DNA of 64,000 nt from the NCBI GenBank assembly GCA_934167495.1, contig CAKPKP010000001.1:133407-197406 (forward strand). Reading direction: 5' to 3'. Shown here piece after piece: positions 29,994 through 35,040 of this stretch. Position 1 is the first letter of the stretch; every line of letters starts with the position of its first letter. The notes below the pieces were generated by a model, which had not been told where the DNA came from, did not search any database, and was given only the letters and a program-made list of their open reading frames with translations. The DNA is from an uncultured Clostridia bacterium. GTDB lineage: Bacteria; Bacillota; Clostridia; TANB77; CAG-508. A program made the position numbers and the translations under genes.

Positions 29994-30026
29994 AAACAGA
30001 TATTTTTATAAATATCTGTTTTTTTG
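29994..30026 (+). terminator. rho-independent terminator
   Basis: aaaacagatattt-ttat-aaatatctgttttttt. Confidence 0.6.
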
Positions 30027-30088
30027 TCTAATAGGAAATTTCTCTGAAATTCCTATTAGACAAATACTTTGTACAGAAATTTTGTCCT
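30026..30088 (+). repeat. dispersed intergenic repeat, copy 3 (truncated after H2 start)
   Basis: gtctaataggaaatttctctgaaattcctattagac + aaatactttgtacagaaattt. Confidence 0.5.
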
Positions 30089-30163: not shown

Positions 30164-30808
30164 ATGTCAAATAGCAACATATATTCATTAAATGGAAAAT
30201 ATATTAATATAGAAGATGAGAAGCTAATAGAGATGATAAAAGCTGGAGATCAAAAGGCTTTAAATTTCCTATTAGACAAATATAACAATATGGTTAATAT
30301 GAAAGTTAACAAATATTTTATAATAGGAGCTGAAAGAGAAGACATAGTTCAAGAAGGATTAATTGGATTATATAAGGCAATAAAGAATTTTAATGGAGAA
30401 AAGCAAAATTCATTTAAAACCTTTGCTAACTTATGTATAGAAAGACAATTAATAACAGCTATAAAAAGTTCAAATAGGCAAAAGCATATGCCATTAAACT
30501 CATATTTATCCTTAAACAATTCGGCCTATGAAGAAAACGAAGATACAGAGTTGCTAGAAGTATTTGATACAGACATAATAGAAGACCCTCTAGATACAAT
30601 AATGAAAAAAGAATATTACAAATCAGTAGAAAATGAAATAGATAAAAACCTAAGTGACTTTGAAAAACAAGTTTTAAATAGATACACAAACGGAGAATCT
30701 TATATAGAAATAGCAACAAGATTAAATATGCCAGTAAAATCAATCGATAATGCAATACAAAGAATAAGAAAAAAAGCAACTAAAAATATAATATTAGATA
30801 AAGATTAA
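30164..30808 (+). CDS. sigH: RNA polymerase sigma factor SigH (Spo0H)
   Basis: near-colinear with B. subtilis SigH: YFIIGAEREDIVQEGLIGLYKAIKNF, RQKHMPLNSY, VKSIDNAIQRIRKK. Confidence 0.85.
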   Translation: MSNSNIYSLNGKYINIEDEKLIEMIKAGDQKALNFLLDKYNNMVNMKVNKYFIIGAEREDIVQEGLIGLYKAIKNFNGEKQNSFKTFANLCIERQLITAIKSSNRQKHMPLNSYLSLNNSAYEENEDTELLEVFDTDIIEDPLDTIMKKEYYKSVENEIDKNLSDFEKQVLNRYTNGESYIEIATRLNMPVKSIDNAIQRIRKKATKNIILDKD

Positions 30809-30857: not shown

Positions 30858-30933
30858 GCTTTCATAGCTCAGTCGGTAGAGCACTACCTTGGTAAGGTAG
30901 AGGTCGCGGGTTCGATTCCCGCTGTAAGCTCCA
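30858..30933 (+). tRNA. tRNA-Thr (anticodon GGT), CCA encoded
   Basis: GCTTTCATAGCTCAGTCGGTAGAGCACTACCTTGGTAAGGTAGAGGTCGCGGGTTCGATTCCCGCTGTAAGCTCCA; one U-U mismatch in acceptor stem. Confidence 0.75.
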
Positions 30934-30937
30934 ATTC

Positions 30938-31004
30938 ATGTCAATGGGGACGGAGATTTTTGACACAAAAACAAACTGTCAAAAACCTCCGTCCCCATTG
31001 ACAT
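30938..31004. repeat. 67-bp GC-cored palindromic element, copy P1
   Basis: atgtcaatggggacggagatttttgaca-caaaaacaaac-tgtcaaaaacctccgtccccattgacat. Confidence 0.7.
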
Positions 31005-31023
31005 ATTATTTAACATTAAACAG

Positions 31024-31052
31024 TTTACATAAGCACGAATATGTGGTATAAT
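31024..31052 (+). promoter_or_regulatory. promoter candidate TTTACA-17-TATAAT with extended TG
   Basis: tttaca...tgGtataat upstream of flotillin gene. Confidence 0.45.
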
Positions 31053-31136
31053 GTGCAGGTAGAGTTTTATTCTGTACAACAAAAGAATAATGTAGTGGAA
31101 AATATTAGTAAAATTTAAAAGGAGATGCTTATTATT

Positions 31137-32864
31137 ATGTTGCAAACGATTTTATCTATTATTATTCCTGTGGTAATTGTAATTGTTATACTTGTTGCAA
31201 TTATTCTGCTCGCAAAGTCTATGTACCGCATTGCAGATGTTGACAAAGCGCTTATCATTACAGGTGGCAAGAAACCAAAGATTATTGTCTCTGGTGGTGC
31301 TTTTGTAATTCCGATTATTCGGAAAGCGGATTTTTTTGATCTCTGCATGCTTACAGTACCAGCCGATGAAGATGAAATTATGACAAAAACAGCAGTTCCA
31401 ATTATTGTTGACTGGACAGCTCAGATTCGTCCTGACAGGTCAGACGATACTCAGCTTGAAACTGCCATTATCTCATTCAAAGAAAGAGGTAAGGGTGGTA
31501 TTATCGACGATGTTCGACTTACTCTTATGGGTGCGGTTCGTGATGTTGTTGCGAGCATGACACCAGAGGAAGTTCTTGCTGATAAAGAAACTTTTAAGAA
31601 AAATGTTCAGGTGTCTGTCGAAGATGAAATGAAAAAGATGGGGCTGGAGCTTGTTTCACTTAACATCCAGGATATCACTGACCGCAATGGTTATTTTGAT
31701 AATATTGCGTTCATTGATAAGGCCGAGAAACAACAAGCTGCTAATATCAAGGCTGCTGAGACTGATCGTATCACTCGTGAACGTAAGGCTTCTGAAAGTC
31801 TTGCGGCAGAAAAAGCTGAAGCAGAAGCAAAACGTCAGGCTGAAATTGCTCGAATGGATGCAGAGCAGGCTGAAAAGGAAAAGCGCAAGGAAACTGATAT
31901 GAAAATTGCTCAGTTCCGTATTGAGACAGACACTGCCCAAGCTGATGCTGAAGTTGCAAAGGAATTACAAGCAACTGTAAGACAGAAAGAAGTTGAAGAA
32001 CAGCGCGGTGCTGTTGAGATTATGAAGCAGGAGCAAATGAATCTCGCAGCCCAGAAGGAAAGAGAGGTCAAGATTACTCGCGCGGAATCCGAAAAGGCTA
32101 CTATGCTCATTGAGGCAGAAACTGCTGCTAATGTTAAGTCTATTGAGGCCCAAAATGAAATTCAGGTAGCTGAGCGCAAGGCTGATGCTAAGCGCAAGGA
32201 GGCAGAAGGTATTGCAGACGTTCAAAAAACTCAGGCAGCAGCACGTGTTGCTGTTGCTGAAAAGGAGGCCGAAGCAGTAAAAATGGGAGCAGAAGCTGCT
32301 GCTTCCAAGACTCGTGCAGAGGGTATTGCAGCGGCAGATGTTGCTAAGGCTCAGAAGGTAGCCGAAGCAGAAGGACATAAGGCTCAGCTTCTTGCAGAAG
32401 CAGAAGGTATTAAAGCTCAGCAGTTAGCTGAAGCAGAAGGTATCAAAGCTAAAAAACTTGCAGAAGCAGAAGGTGAACGAGTACTTGCTGAAGCACGAGC
32501 TGCTAATGATAAGGTCAACTTCGAAATTGAGAAGTTGAAAATTCAGACTGATGCTCAGATTAAGATTGCTACCAGCACTGCAGAAATTATGGCAAATATT
32601 GGTCAGAATGCTGAATTCGTCAATATTGGCGGCGGAAATCTCTCTAACCTCAATGGTAACGGAGTAACTGGCAATGCTCTTATTGACACTATCATGTCCA
32701 TTCCTGGAATTATGAAAGTTCTCAATGTTGAAAATCAGGTTCTTAACGGGAAATCAATGACTGATGAAATTAAGGAAATCTCTGATGCAACTTTGAGTGG
32801 TCTCAGTGGTTTGCGAAAATCTTCAGGAGAAACTTCAGAACCTGAAAAAACTAAAACCGAATGA
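31137..32864 (+). CDS. flotillin (FloT/YuaG-like SPFH/band-7 protein), compositionally foreign (~42-45% GC)
   Basis: N-terminal TM, SPFH core colinear with B. subtilis FloT, long Ala/Glu/Lys-rich coiled coil; ATG 31137 preferred (GGAG abuts 31125). Confidence 0.8.
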   Translation: MLQTILSIIIPVVIVIVILVAIILLAKSMYRIADVDKALIITGGKKPKIIVSGGAFVIPIIRKADFFDLCMLTVPADEDEIMTKTAVPIIVDWTAQIRPDRSDDTQLETAIISFKERGKGGIIDDVRLTLMGAVRDVVASMTPEEVLADKETFKKNVQVSVEDEMKKMGLELVSLNIQDITDRNGYFDNIAFIDKAEKQQAANIKAAETDRITRERKASESLAAEKAEAEAKRQAEIARMDAEQAEKEKRKETDMKIAQFRIETDTAQADAEVAKELQATVRQKEVEEQRGAVEIMKQEQMNLAAQKEREVKITRAESEKATMLIEAETAANVKSIEAQNEIQVAERKADAKRKEAEGIADVQKTQAAARVAVAEKEAEAVKMGAEAAASKTRAEGIAAADVAKAQKVAEAEGHKAQLLAEAEGIKAQQLAEAEGIKAKKLAEAEGERVLAEARAANDKVNFEIEKLKIQTDAQIKIATSTAEIMANIGQNAEFVNIGGGNLSNLNGNGVTGNALIDTIMSIPGIMKVLNVENQVLNGKSMTDEIKEISDATLSGLSGLRKSSGETSEPEKTKTE

Positions 32865-32911
32865 AATCCACAGTATAAACTCTAAGTTAATTACTAATCT
32901 ACTACATTCTT

Positions 32912-32950
32912 TTGGGAGGGTACCATCAATATGGATACCCTCTTTTTATT
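32912..32950 (+). terminator. rho-independent terminator
   Basis: gagggta-ccatcaatatgga-taccctc + tttttatttt. Confidence 0.55.
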
Positions 32951-32963
32951 TTGTTCTCAACGG

Positions 32964-33030
32964 ATGTCAACGGGGACGGAGATTTTTGACACAAAAACTA
33001 ACTGTCAAAAACCTTCGTCCTTATTGATAC
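32964..33030. repeat. 67-bp palindromic element, copy P2 (degenerate right arm)
   Basis: atgtcaacggggacggagatttttgacacaaaaactaactgtcaaaaaccttcgtccttattgatac. Confidence 0.65.
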
Positions 33031-33178
33031 TTGCTGTCATATAATGCAATTCAATAAGTAAGTTGACATTTTATGTAAAGCAATATATAATATATAATAT
33101 ATTTTTTAGTTACCCAAAAAGGTTTAACAAATCTTGGAGGGTAAAACCTCCAAGAAATACAAGGAGGAATTATTTATT

Positions 33179-33568
33179 ATGACTGCATTAAAGCAATTTA
33201 ACAGAGCACTTGAAAAACTGCCAACTAGATTAAAAGAATTAAAAAAATTAATTACCCAACAAGATTGGAAGAAAGAAGAGATAAATCAAGCAATTTCAAT
33301 ACTTGAAAGTCTTGAAGAAGGAGATTGGTTTGATTCAATACCATATGCCAGTATACAATTTACCAGGGTGGCATTGTACTTTTCTCCGAGTGAATGTGGA
33401 GTGAATAATAAGTTTTTTAATTCTAAAAATATTCTAAAGGCATGCGAATACACCCGTGGGTTGTTGGAAAAGATAAATGAAATATCTAAGTACATACAAT
33501 TTACCTTAGACGGATGGGCACTTGAAGATGAGGAAATGTGTATATTTTATATCAGGTGGGAAATTTAA
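33179..33568 (+). CDS. hypothetical 129-aa protein inside the islet
   Basis: AAGGAGG RBS; preceded by perfect hairpin cttggagggtaaaacctccaag; no recognisable motif. Confidence 0.45.
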   Translation: MTALKQFNRALEKLPTRLKELKKLITQQDWKKEEINQAISILESLEEGDWFDSIPYASIQFTRVALYFSPSECGVNNKFFNSKNILKACEYTRGLLEKINEISKYIQFTLDGWALEDEEMCIFYIRWEI

Positions 33569-33626
33569 AAAATATAGTTGAAATAGATAGGTTTTATACA
33601 AATTAGTATGAGACCTATTTATTATT

Positions 33627-33780
33627 TAATAGGAAATTCCAATGAAAATCCTATTAGATAAAATTACATTGTACAGAAATTTGCTATATGCAAATTTCGT
33701 ACACGAACAATTAAACGTGGGCTGAACGTTACAATTTAAAATGTAGAAAAATTTAATCAGCCACTATTGTTCTTTGGGGT
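33627..33780 (+). repeat. dispersed structured intergenic repeat, copy 4 (full variant A with 3-prime closing arm)
   Basis: H1, H2, and cacgaacaattaaacgtgggctga...tcagccactattgttc. Confidence 0.6.
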
Positions 33781-33786
33781 TGCTAA

Positions 33787-33820
33787 ATGATGTCAAAAAT
33801 CTCCGTCCCCATTGACATAT
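33787..33820. repeat. palindromic element half-copy P3 (exact reverse complement of P1 left arm)
   Basis: atgatgtcaaaaatctccgtccccattgacatat. Confidence 0.65.
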
Positions 33821-33839
33821 AAAATTGTGATGATATAAT
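33812..33839 (+). promoter_or_regulatory. promoter TTGACA-16-TGaTATAAT for mscL; -35 lies inside palindrome half-copy
   Basis: ccattgacatataaaattgtgatgatataat. Confidence 0.5.
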
Positions 33840-33876: not shown

Positions 33877-34344
33877 ATGGGAAAAAAAGAAGAAATAATG
33901 AAAAAATTAGACAAAGATGAATTAAAAGAAGTAAACAAGAGAATAAGCAAAGGTGCATCAGAATTTAAAAAATTTATAATGAAAGGTGATGTTGTTGACT
34001 TAGCTGTTGGTGTTATAATAGGTGGAGCTTTTGGAAAAATAGTAACTTCTTTAGTAAATGATATATTAATGCCAATAATTGGAGTATTAATTGGAGGGAT
34101 TGATTTTAGTAATTTAAGTATTGATTTTATAGATGCTAAAATTATGTATGGCTCTTTTATTCAACAGGTTTTGGATTTTCTTATAATTTCATTATGTATT
34201 TTTATCTTTGTTAAAGTTATAGCTAAAATTACAAATAAAAAAGAAATTGAGGAAGAGAGTGAAAAAGAGAGTAAAAAAACAGATGTGGTTATATTATTAG
34301 AAGAAATTAGAGATTTGCTAAAAGAAAAAAATAATATAAAATAA
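33877..34344 (+). CDS. mscL: large-conductance mechanosensitive channel
   Basis: [29 protein letters not shown]. Confidence 0.9.
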
Positions 34345-34753: not shown

Positions 34754-34767
34754 ATTTGCTTTTTAAT

Positions 34768-35040
34768 ATTATAGGAAAGTTCGCTGAACTTCCTATAATA
34801 TAAATATATTGCACAGAAATTTGCTTTGCAAATTTCACACACGAACAAAGACGCGGACTTCAAAATGTTTTAATAAGTACAAAAGTTATTAATGTCCGCT
34901 TTTGTTCTCTCTTTTTCTATATATTTTTGGATAGAAAATTTACTAAAATCAATTCTGCACAATAACAATTAAATGTGGACTAATTTCCACAATTTGAAAT
35001 ATAGAAAAATTTAATTAGTCCATTATTGTTATATTATTTA
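34768..35040 (+). repeat. dispersed structured intergenic repeat, copy 5 (variant B module followed by variant A 3-prime module)
   Basis: near-identical to copy 2 for ~140 nt, then acaataacaattaaatgtggactaa...ttagtccattattgtt. Confidence 0.6.

What the first reader, a model, noticed from the sequence alone, without database searches (positions are those of the whole stretch)
30938..33839. GC-cored 67-bp palindrome in 2.5 copies; half-copy donates the -35 box of the mscL promoter
P1 (30938-31004) and P2 (32964-33030) are long imperfect palindromes, ATGTCAATGGGGACGGAGATTTTTGACA...TGTCAAAAACCTCCGTCCCCATTGACAT. Such a sequence could act as a strong bidirectional terminator or as a cruciform. P3 (33787-33820) is a half site. 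Its terminal CCATTGACAT provides the TTGACA of a TTGACA-16-TGaTATAAT promoter directly upstream of mscL. That is an example of a repeat element creating or carrying an outward promoter. These palindromes are unrelated in sequence to the dispersed repeat family above.
Basis: seen in the sequence. Interest (0 to 1): 0.55.

Follow-up and report, generated by a model that had tools for sequence, protein, structure and literature searches.

The report
Transposase-linked palindromic repeats beside mscL
The palindromes are ordinary copies of a small hairpin-forming repeat family scattered through the genomes of uncultured gut Clostridia and tied to a single tyrosine (HUH) transposase gene; one half-copy happens to supply the -35 box of a plausible mscL promoter, which looks like a local accident and not a property of the family.

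Summary
P1 (30938-31004) and P2 (32964-33030) are 67-nt palindromes, and P3 (33791-33818) is one arm, 28/28 complementary to P1's left arm. They are not unique to this locus. The 27-nt unit TGTCAATGGGGACGGAGATTTTTGACA occurs as 224 arms in at least 42 uncultured low-GC gut Clostridia MAGs and 3 phage contigs, as hairpin doublets, singlets and nested groups. The arms are strongly intergenic.

In 12 loci the same arms bracket a ~225-aa gene. It has a Pfam Y1_Tnp domain, its best NCBIfam hit is REP-associated tyrosine transposase, HUH and Y---NP motifs are invariant, it carries a C-terminal HTH, and its best PDB fold match is 4ER8. Long-loop doublets are internal deletions of this gene unit. Doublets have no target-site duplications, and arm changes are compensated.

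The repeats are therefore a TIR/REPIN-like family of a TIRYT (RAYT group 1, TnpA_Y1 subclass 2.1). This is a new member of a known kind, not reported for Clostridia in the papers I searched.

The TTGACA-16-TGaTATAAT promoter is present and is conserved in a sister lineage. Outward promoters are not a family trait (5 of 152 arms, equal to background). No transposase gene lies in the window, and no transcription data exist.

The parts
30858..30933 (+). tRNA-Thr(GGT) gene; P1 begins 4 nt after its 3' end
   Evidence: ARAGORN and Rfam tRNA at 72 bits. Across the fetched loci, 8 of 24 tRNA genes have an arm 1-46 nt downstream of the 3' end.
30938..30965 (+). P1 left arm, family consensus with 0 mismatches; the outer end faces the tRNA
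30966..30976 (.). P1 loop, 11 nt (CAAAAACAAAC)
   Evidence: An 11-nt loop is one of the common loop lengths in the family.
30977..31004 (-). P1 right arm, 1 mismatch
   Evidence: The P1 hairpin folds at -43.0 kcal/mol as RNA and -28.5 as DNA. P1 is identical in sister-lineage loci L123-L126.
31008..32955 (+). Self-contained flotillin (SPFH/Band_7) transcription unit: promoter TTTACA-17-TGgTATAAT at 31024-31052, CDS 31125-32864, and a hairpin followed by a T-run just before P2. Not part of the repeat, but bracketed by P1 and P2.
   Evidence: Pfam Band_7; promoter scan; fourfold GC3 0.20. The same block is found at 84% identity in unrelated contexts without arms in L142/L143.
32957..32963 (+). 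Terminal stub TCAACGG, a tandem partial copy of the P2 outer terminus
   Evidence: Thirty of 198 arms carry such a stub, against 2 of 198 in a control window.
32964..32991 (+). P2 left arm, 1 mismatch
33003..33030 (-). P2 right arm, decayed, 6 mismatches
   Evidence: The P2 hairpin folds at -28.6 kcal/mol as RNA.
33179..33568 (+). ORF129, no family match, with its own TTGACA-17-TATAAT promoter at 33063-33091. It lies between P2 and P3 and is absent in the sister lineage.
   Evidence: fourfold GC3 0.29.
33791..33818 (-). P3, a singlet arm with 0 mismatches, 28/28 complementary to the P1 left arm
   Evidence: (I2)
33812..33839 (+). Predicted sigma-70 promoter of mscL. The -35 TTGACA (33812-33817) lies inside P3, followed by a 16-nt spacer and TGaTATAAT (-10 at 33834-33839).
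   Evidence: 12/12 matches, TG extension. The leader is conserved in L123-L126. No transcription data.
33877..34344 (+). mscL (large-conductance mechanosensitive channel), with native-like codon usage
   Evidence: Pfam MscL E 6.6e-41; fourfold GC3 0.08

Best explanation
P1 and P2 are hairpin doublets and P3 is a singlet of a dispersed, MITE-like inverted-repeat family with the unit TGTCAATGGGGACGGAGATTTTTGACA. The family belongs to a single-gene HUH/Y1 tyrosine-transposase element, of the kind called TIRtron/TIRYT, RAYT group 1 or TnpA_Y1 subclass 2.1, found in a clade of uncultured low-GC gut Clostridia.

Shown: the family exists and is intergenic. The same arms bracket the Y1 gene. Long-loop doublets are internal deletions of that gene unit. 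Arm changes are compensated across the hairpin, and there are no target-site duplications.

Inferred: the Y1 enzyme, encoded elsewhere in this genome, recognises the arms in single-stranded DNA, most likely as the long hairpin, and cuts and rejoins them. That spreads and maintains doublets in trans, as proposed for REPIN-RAYT systems. Singlets such as P3 would be decayed or recombined doublets.

The mscL promoter is a by-product. The outer end of every arm reads TTGACA, and at this one site it lies 16 nt from a TGnTATAAT box.
For: The family is dispersed. There are 224 arms with up to 6 mismatches in those loci, from 42 MAGs, with up to 20 or more per MAG as a lower bound. Three phage contigs also carry arms.

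The arms are intergenic: 17% of arm bases lie in ORFs of at least 120 aa, against 72% of all bases.

A ~225-aa gene is bracketed by a '+' arm 60-170 nt (mostly 100-140) upstream and a '-' arm 0-35 nt downstream. This holds in 9 loci found through the DNA pattern. It also holds in 3 loci fetched independently through the protein, and the most divergent protein has diverged arms, GGGGACGTAG.

Protein identity: Pfam Y1_Tnp at 43-49 bits (cutoff 23). NCBIfam REP-associated tyrosine transposase at 71-79 bits (cutoff 80), against about 20 bits for IS200. H60/H62 and Y120...N124-P125 are invariant, and there is a conserved C-terminal HTH. The AlphaFold model has pLDDT 80.6, and its best PDB match is 4ER8, RAYT bound to a REP hairpin, at E 2e-6.

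Doublets L009, L076 and L081 equal the 5' arm plus a 55-nt leader of the gene unit, fused to its 3' arm.

In 43 distinct doublets, 92% of cells are Watson-Crick pairs and there are 32 compensated double changes. There is no TSD for k = 1-8. Neighbouring singlets are mostly in ends-out orientation: 16 '+-' against 3 '-+' and 6 direct.

Literature: TIRYT genes flanked by TIRs that form single, dimer and grouped families, many with the motif GGGGWSAS (PMC3733652). Subclass 2.1 has a C-terminal HTH and corresponds to TIRYT and RAYT group 1, and class 2 has the Y---NP signature (PMC6006769). [quoted passage not shown]
Against: No Y1 gene or remnant lies in the 64-kb window, and the window's own genome was not among the fetched loci. 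The link for this genome is therefore by family membership only. All evidence for mobilisation is comparative, with no excision or insertion event and no biochemistry. P1 is identical at the orthologous site in the sister lineage, so these copies are stable, not recently moved. The NCBIfam score is just below the equivalog cutoff, and phmmer finds no PDB relative by sequence. The single arm is not itself a convincing hairpin: -2.6 kcal/mol, with the 6-bp TGTCAA/TTGACA stem not supported by covariation. This differs from classical REPs and leaves the recognised DNA structure uncertain. Compensated changes could come from copying or gene conversion between arms instead of selection for pairing.
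Confidence: 0.8

Rival explanations
1. This is a promoter-carrying repeat. The family would be kept or spread because its outer TTGACA acts as a portable -35 box that drives neighbouring genes, as described for Correia elements in Neisseria.
For: Every arm ends in TTGACA: 152 of the arms scored. At mscL it sits 16 nt from TGaTATAAT, a 12/12 match. This leader is conserved in the sister lineage even though the rest of the arm is lost there. Three other arms (L015, L026, L054) show the same 16-nt geometry.
Against: Only 5 of 152 arms have a good -10 at 16-18 nt, against about 6.5 expected from the rate at spacings 8-39. P1 and P2 do not use their TTGACA; the flotillin and ORF129 promoters lie further downstream. 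The transposase's own promoter is internal, not the arm's inner TTGACA. A relative's mscL has an unrelated TTGACA-17-TATAAT promoter (L130-L132).
Confidence: 0.1
2. The palindromes are host-selected RNA or DNA structural elements, such as bidirectional terminators, RNA-stability hairpins or cruciforms, and their sequence similarity reflects that function and not mobility.
For: The hairpins are very stable (P1 RNA -43 kcal/mol, z -11.9). Arm changes are compensated. The copies are intergenic. Several lie directly after tRNA genes. Classical REPs are reported to affect termination and mRNA stability (PMC6006769 background).
Against: No U-tract follows P1 or P2, and the scan calls no terminator there. 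Flotillin already has a canonical terminator before P2. Many copies, 110 of the arms with up to 5 mismatches, are singlets that cannot form the hairpin. A 27-nt sequence conserved across 42 MAGs, together with flanking of a transposase gene and deletion derivatives of it, is not expected for plain terminators.
Confidence: 0.06
3. The palindromes are site-specific recombination sites that bound gene cassettes (integron attC-like or dif-like), explaining P1 | flotillin | P2 | ORF129 | P3 next to a tRNA gene.
For: The palindromes separate two self-contained, compositionally atypical genes in an interval that is variable between lineages. ORF129 is present or absent, with arm sequence at both junctions. 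Other inverted pairs enclose accessory genes.
Against: No integrase or recombinase lies in the locus. The arms lack attC R-box cores (RYYYAAC/GTTRRRY; read from the sequence). Most copies elsewhere are isolated doublets with no cassette. The flotillin unit is found in three other contexts without arms. The sister-lineage junction is not a clean recombinant of P2 and P3.
Confidence: 0.03
4. The palindromes are a conventional MITE mobilised by a DDE transposase. The ends read 5'-TG...CA-3', and some copies have tandem subterminal units 22-30 nt apart, as in Tn7, Mu or IS21 ends.
For: The TGTCA...TGACA termini, and the nested or tandem units in L007, L067 and L083.
Against: There are no target-site duplications at any length. 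No DDE transposase recurs near arms; the only recurrent arm-flanked gene is the Y1 gene.
Confidence: 0.01

Closest known systems
TIRtrons, TIRYTs and their TIR repeat families (Di Nocera et al. 2013, PMC3733652), equal to TnpA_Y1 subclass 2.1 (Quentin et al. 2018, PMC6006769) and RAYT group 1 (Bertels et al. 2017, PMC5581495)
   Same: A Y1/HUH gene with the Y---NP signature and a C-terminal HTH. It is flanked by long inverted repeats, not by GTAG-tagged REPs. The same repeats are dispersed in moderate numbers as singles, dimers and groups. The G-rich core GGGGACGG matches 7 of 8 positions of the published GGGGWSAS motif.
   Different: The host is uncultured gut Clostridia. The TIRYT paper has no Firmicutes or Clostridia text hits, and PMC6006769 reports no REP-like repeats near subclass 2.1 genes. 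The C-terminal HTH hits HTH_11, DeoR and HTH_38 weakly, not Bac_DnaA_C, HTH_23 or HTH_28. The deletion-derivative relationship between doublets and the gene unit is explicit here. The family also occurs in phage contigs.
REPIN-RAYT systems of Pseudomonas and Enterobacteria (Bertels & Rainey 2011, PMC3116915; structure 4ER8)
   Same: Inverted doublets form long hairpins, with singlets as leftovers. The copies are extragenic, and the repeats flank a single-copy-type Y1 transposase gene. The best fold match is the E. coli RAYT. Copies persist at orthologous sites.
   Different: The unit is not itself a GC-rich imperfect palindrome and has no 5' GTAG/GTGG foot. Observed copy numbers are tens, not hundreds. 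The transposase is longer and has an HTH tail.
IS200/IS605 family elements and their palindrome-associated derivatives
   Same: HUH/Y1 chemistry, no target-site duplication, and dependence on DNA secondary structure. These are inferred here from homology and from the absent TSD.
   Different: IS200/IS605 ends are asymmetric subterminal hairpins, not 27-nt terminal inverted repeats. The IS200 model scores only about 20 bits. The gene is not seen multiplied within the fetched loci of any one MAG.
Correia elements (CREE/NEMIS) of Neisseria, MITEs whose ends can create promoters (from my own knowledge; NEMIS is listed as a MITE in PMC3733652)
   Same: A small palindromic intergenic element whose terminal sequence can supply a promoter hexamer to the adjacent gene, as P3 appears to do for mscL.
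   Different: Correia elements have TA duplications and no known dedicated transposase. Here promoter creation is not enriched across the family.

Membership tests
TIRtron / TIRYT (TnpA_Y1 subclass 2.1, RAYT group 1) | Y1 transposase core with an HUH motif and the class-2 Y---NP motif | tested here: met
   Pfam Y1_Tnp at 43-49 bits. H60, H62, Y120, N124 and P125 are invariant in 30-39 homologs. The top fold match is 4ER8.
TIRtron / TIRYT (TnpA_Y1 subclass 2.1, RAYT group 1) | C-terminal helix-turn-helix extension | tested here: met
   Weak HTH_11, HTH_DeoR and HTH_38 hits at residues ~190-225. That region is conserved and forms predicted helices at 165-224. The Pfam HTH types differ from those named in PMC6006769.
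TIRtron / TIRYT (TnpA_Y1 subclass 2.1, RAYT group 1) | Gene flanked by long terminal inverted repeats | tested here: met
   In 10 of 12 loci the ungapped search found both arms within 170 nt upstream and 35 nt downstream. L104 has an upstream arm with a 1-nt deletion, seen only by eye. L054 lacks the close downstream arm..
TIRtron / TIRYT (TnpA_Y1 subclass 2.1, RAYT group 1) | TIR copies dispersed in the genome as singles, dimers and groups | tested here: met
   224 arms, including 43 distinct doublets, singlets, and nested groups such as L007, L067 and L083.
TIRtron / TIRYT (TnpA_Y1 subclass 2.1, RAYT group 1) | GGGGWSAS motif in the TIR (present in many, not all, published TIRs) | tested here: inconclusive
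   The arm has GGGGACGG, matching 7 of 8 positions with G instead of A at position 7.
TIRtron / TIRYT (TnpA_Y1 subclass 2.1, RAYT group 1) | A cognate transposase gene in the same genome as the window's copies | not testable with these tools
   There is none in the 64-kb window, and the window's genome was not among the fetched loci. Nine of 42 MAGs showed the gene within the 8-kb pieces fetched.
Classical REP / REPIN-RAYT | Each REP unit is an imperfect palindrome with a 5' GT[AG]G foot | tested here: not met
   The arm has no GTAG/GTGG. Its only self-pairing is a 6-bp TGTCAA/TTGACA stem with a 15-nt loop, -2.6 kcal/mol, and this stem is not kept by covariation.
Classical REP / REPIN-RAYT | Inverted doublets forming hairpins, with the repeats flanking the RAYT gene | tested here: met
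DDE-type MITE | Target-site duplication flanking the element | tested here: not met
   In 52 doublets, k = 1-8 observed equals the shuffled expectation, with 0 cases at k of 4 or more.
Intrinsic (rho-independent) terminator | GC-rich stem-loop immediately followed by a U-tract | tested here: not met
   P1 is followed by ATTATTTAAC and P2 by TTGCTGTCAT. The terminator scan calls neither.
Integron attC / cassette array | R''/R' core sites (RYYYAAC / GTTRRRY) and an integrase nearby | tested here: not met
   The arm termini are TGTCAAT/ATTGACA. There is no integrase among the neighbouring genes.
Sigma-70 promoter (mscL) | -35 and -10 hexamers with 16-18 nt spacing | tested here: met
   TTGACA-16-TATAAT with a TG extension, 12/12.
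Sigma-70 promoter (mscL) | Mapped transcription start | not testable with these tools
   No transcriptome data exist for this uncultured organism.
Any curated RNA family (Rfam 15) | Match at the gathering score | tested here: not met
   Only sub-threshold generic hairpin matches to miRNA models, 25-37 bits against cutoffs of 60-94.

The most novel reading that the evidence does not exclude
The arms may not be passive passengers. They, or the Y1 enzyme acting on them, might target the 3' side of tRNA genes and mark junctions where self-contained accessory transcription units are captured, exchanged or lost. That would make this family a driver of small-cassette turnover next to tRNA genes in these reduced gut Clostridia and their phages. 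Candidate cassettes are flotillin and ORF129 here, and ATPase, HD, GNAT and HEPN-like genes elsewhere. The supporting hints are these. Six of 24 tRNAs have an arm within 1-7 nt of the 3' end. The two arm-bracketed genes here are the compositionally foreign ones. ORF129 is present or absent with arm sequence at both junctions. A phage carries two doublets around a small ORF directly after a tRNA-Gly.
Probability: 0.12. Interest if true: 0.6.

Novelty: new member of a known kind. Interest (0 to 1): 0.35.

Why it matters
The finding gives a concrete, sequence-defined repeat family and its probable enzyme for a clade of uncultured gut Clostridia. TnpA_Y1 subclass 2.1 (RAYT group 1) is the largest RAYT group, yet it is the one for which associated repeats were reported as absent or of low abundance. 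Here the association is clean: the arms flank the gene, doublets are deletion derivatives of the gene unit, and there are no duplications. That makes the family a usable model for asking what subclass 2.1 enzymes recognise.

Practically, the family explains assembly breaks and hairpins in these MAGs and flags variable junctions. The mscL promoter is a small example of a repeat end recruited as a -35 box, but it does not change how we understand the family.

Tried and rejected
1. I looked for a Y1 gene or remnant in the window by tblastn and found none.

2. I tested a family-wide outward promoter and rejected it.

3. I tested the idea that inverted arms carry flotillin as a transposable unit and rejected it. 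Flotillin homologs at 87, 73 and 68% identity lie in unrelated contexts with no arms, and homology to the window covers only promoter to terminator.

4. I looked for an empty site. Same-species contigs all carry the insert. MscL relatives at 76-78% have different synteny. The outgroup found through the sigma factor lacks flotillin, mscL and arms altogether, so no clean pre-insertion site could be reconstructed.

5. I rejected the idea that the single arm is a REP-like hairpin. Its self-fold is weak and is not supported by covariation.

6. I rejected an attC or recombination-site reading from the sequence and gene content.

7. Rfam gave only sub-threshold generic hairpin hits. phmmer against PDB sequences gave nothing; the fold search was needed.

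8. Four high-GC loci from the pattern scan (L060, L089, L098, L100) have no full arm within 6 mismatches, and the 19-mer match there may be chance. A Coriobacteriales MAG (L062, L119) has partial arms of unclear meaning.

9. ORF129 has no Pfam or PHROG match.


Full report
**Observation.** P1 (30938-31004) and P2 (32964-33030) are 67-nt palindromes with 28-nt arms and 11-nt loops. P3 (33791-33818) is a single right-hand arm, 28/28 complementary to the left arm of P1. Four arms match the 28-mer within 3 mismatches, against 0.00 expected from shuffles. The fifth, the right arm of P2, is decayed with 6 mismatches. The core GGGGACGGAG occurs nowhere else in the 64-kb window. P1 folds at -43.0 kcal/mol as RNA and -28.5 as DNA (z about -12). 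P2 folds at -28.6 and -13.4. A single arm folds only weakly, at -2.6. The promoter geometry is exact: TTGACA (33812-33817, inside P3), a 16-nt spacer, then TGaTATAAT.

**Context.** The gene order is sigma-70-like gene, tRNA-Thr(GGT), P1 (4 nt after the tRNA), an SPFH/flotillin gene with its own promoter and terminator, P2, a 129-aa ORF with its own promoter, a copy of a different dispersed repeat, P3, mscL, ychF. GC content rises to 41-50% over the flotillin gene. At fourfold-degenerate sites, flotillin (0.20) and ORF129 (0.29) differ from the native genes (0.00-0.08; mscL 0.08). No known RNA family matches at threshold.

**The palindrome is a dispersed family.** Nearly all are uncultured low-GC gut Clostridia MAGs from human, rabbit, chicken, mouse and ruminant samples. 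Three phage contigs also matched. They encode a tape measure protein, tail proteins and an amidase. Allowing up to 6 mismatches, the fetched loci hold 224 arms from 42 MAGs, with up to 20 per MAG as a lower bound. The arms occur as hairpin doublets with loops of 2-72 nt, as singlets, and as nested or tandem groups. Position 1 of the 28-mer is not conserved, so the unit is 27 nt: TGTCAATGGGGACGGAGATTTTTGACA. The arms are strongly intergenic: 17% of arm bases lie in long ORFs, against 72% of all bases.

**The associated gene.** Clustering all ORFs near the arms gave one family with a fixed relation to them. A ~225-aa protein has a '+' arm 60-170 nt (mostly 100-140) upstream and a '-' arm 0-35 nt downstream, in 9 loci from 9 MAGs. 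It passes Pfam Y1_Tnp at 43-49 bits. Its best NCBIfam model is REP-associated tyrosine transposase, at 71-79 bits against a cutoff of 80, while IS200 scores about 20 bits. An alignment of homologs shows an invariant HUH motif (H60, H62), the class-2 signature Y120---N124-P125, and a conserved C-terminal helix-turn-helix. More than 1,200 clusters of homologs exist. An AlphaFold model (pLDDT 80.6) has the E. coli RAYT-REP hairpin complex 4ER8 as its best PDB match, ahead of the IS608, ISDra2 and IS200 transposases. Homologs fetched independently through the protein are flanked by the same arms (L140, L141). The most divergent one (L138) has diverged arms, GGGGACGTAG.

**Relationship between doublets and the gene unit.** The long-loop doublets L009, L076 and L081 align base for base with the 5' arm plus the first 55 nt of the transposase leader, fused directly to the 3' arm. 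They are internal deletions of the gene unit, which is the way MITEs derive from autonomous elements. Across 43 distinct doublets, 92% of positions are Watson-Crick paired, and the variable positions are mostly compensated: position 7 has AT 33, GC 5, CG 2, TA 1, and position 19 has AT 22, CG 7, TA 7. There are no target-site duplications at any length. That fits single-strand HUH/Y1 transposition and argues against a DDE-type MITE. Neighbouring singlets are mostly in ends-out orientation (16, against 3 and 6).

**Comparison with the literature.** Di Nocera et al. (PMC3733652) described RAYT-like genes flanked by long TIRs, which they called TIRtrons encoding TIRYTs. The TIRs form moderately abundant single, dimer and grouped families, and many share the motif GGGGWSAS; our arm has GGGGACGG. 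Quentin et al. (PMC6006769) equate TIRYTs with TnpA_Y1 subclass 2.1, which has a C-terminal HTH, and with RAYT group 1. They give Y---NP as the class-2 signature and report finding no REP-like repeats near subclass 2.1 genes. Bertels et al. (PMC5581495) note that group 1 is also found in Clostridia and has flanking 16-mers of low abundance. Only two works in the searchable library use the TIRYT term. The present family is therefore a new member of a known kind. It fails the classical REP definition because it has no GTAG foot and the unit is not itself a palindrome.

**The mscL promoter.** In a sister lineage (MscL 97% identical; L123-L126), P1 is identical. ORF129 and the full P3 arm are absent. 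Upstream of mscL there is one P2-like doublet followed by short tandem stubs, CATTGACAC ATTGATAA CCATTGACAT, and then the identical ATAAAATTGTGATGATATAAT leader. The -35 hexamer therefore lies in repeat-derived sequence in both lineages, and the promoter is conserved. A more distant mscL (L130-L132) uses an unrelated TTGACA-17-TATAAT promoter. Across the family, the outer TTGACA is followed by a good -10 at 16-18 nt in 5 of 152 arms, against about 6.5 expected from other spacings. The donation of the -35 is plausible for this site, though unverified without transcript mapping. It is not what the family is for.

**The island question.** An outgroup (sigma 69%, YchF 80% identical) has tRNA-Thr followed directly by ychF, with no flotillin, no mscL and no arms. 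So the tRNA-Thr to ychF interval is a variable hotspot. However, flotillin homologs at 87, 73 and 68% identity sit in unrelated contexts without any arms. Homology to the window covers only 31008-32955, from promoter to terminator. The flotillin unit therefore relocates without the arms. The arms occupy junctions between modules and are not the ends of a flotillin transposon.

**Additional anatomy.** Thirty of 198 arms have a tandem stub of their own outer terminus (GTCAATGG) just outside the arm, against 2 of 198 in a control window. P2 has one at 32957-32963. Eight of 24 tRNA genes in the loci have an arm 1-46 nt after their 3' end, six of them within 1-7 nt, as at P1. Both patterns are unexplained and may reflect target choice or end processing.

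**Verdict.** The elements are TIR/REPIN-like repeats of a Clostridial TIRYT-type Y1 transposase (confidence 0.8). The mscL -35 overlap is a local and probably functional accident. The main limits are that there is no transposase gene in the window, no complete genome of this species, and no experimental data.

Noticed in passing
window 30014-30082, 30258-30291, 33612-33790, 34754-35000; L123 4700-4843: A second, unrelated dispersed repeat (core TAATAGGAAATTyCnnTGAAnTTCCTATTAGAyAAATA...TGTACAGAAATTTGC...CGCTTTTGTTCT) of about 150-250 nt. Its position differs between the window, where it lies after ORF129, and the sister lineage, where it lies directly after the flotillin terminator. It therefore looks mobile too.
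   Followed up: partly
L121 12334-12441; L122 6538-6639; L044 2330-2447; L072 7581-7698; L015 6865-6973; window 30858-30965: Arms lie 1-7 nt after the 3' end of tRNA genes (Gly, Leu, Leu, Glu, Thr), in either orientation. Counting those up to 46 nt away, this applies to 8 of 24 tRNAs in the fetched loci. This may be a target preference for the 3' side of tRNA genes.
   Followed up: partly
window 32957-32963; many loci, e.g. L011 4981-4992, L042 1509-1520, L070 7042-7050: Short tandem stubs of the arm's outer terminus (TGTCAATGG / CCATTGACA) lie just outside 15% of arms, including both sides of transposase units. In the sister lineage the mscL -35 sits in such a stub. The mechanism is unknown.
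   Followed up: partly
L120 1398-2150; L121 12414-13166; L122 6612-7364: Phage contigs (tape measure protein, tail proteins, amidase) carry two 41-nt-loop doublets that bracket a 120-aa ORF of unknown function, just after a phage tRNA-Gly and downstream of the lysis genes.
   Followed up: partly
L135 and L136 5747-5800: In the outgroup, the sequence right after tRNA-Thr reads AAATGTCATTTGACAAAATCAATAAATGACGGTATAAT. It contains ATGTCA-T-TTGACA, which is the two arm termini without the 15-nt core, and this doubles as the -35 of a TTGACA-17-TATAAT promoter. This may be coincidence or a hint about the target or origin of the arms.
   Followed up: no
L125 and L126 5585-6781 versus L123 and L124: A peptidase M20 gene is present between mscL and ychF in some sister-lineage contigs and absent in others and in the window. 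This is another presence/absence polymorphism in the same hotspot, and it has no arms at its borders.
   Followed up: no
L015 4705-6504; L112 4574-5212; L093 1204-2299; L056 396-3538; L081 whole contig: Inverted arm pairs elsewhere enclose accessory genes: an AAA_23/SMC_N ATPase, an HD_4 protein, GNAT proteins and a relaxase-like protein. L081 is a 6.3-kb contig with doublets at both ends, carrying HEPN_Apea-like (weak hit), GNAT and DMP19-like genes.
   Followed up: partly
window 31008-32955; L142-L147: The flotillin transcription unit, from promoter through terminator, is conserved at 70-84% DNA identity. It sits in a different genomic neighbourhood in each lineage examined, and even differs upstream between two contigs (L142, L143) that encode the identical protein. 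It has elevated GC3 relative to host genes.
   Followed up: partly
L062 6422-6449; L119 84-111: A Coriobacteriales MAG at about 50% GC holds arm-like sequences (GTGCCAAAGGGGACGGAGGTTTTTGACA, 4 mismatches). This could be bin contamination, horizontal transfer or a related family.
   Followed up: no
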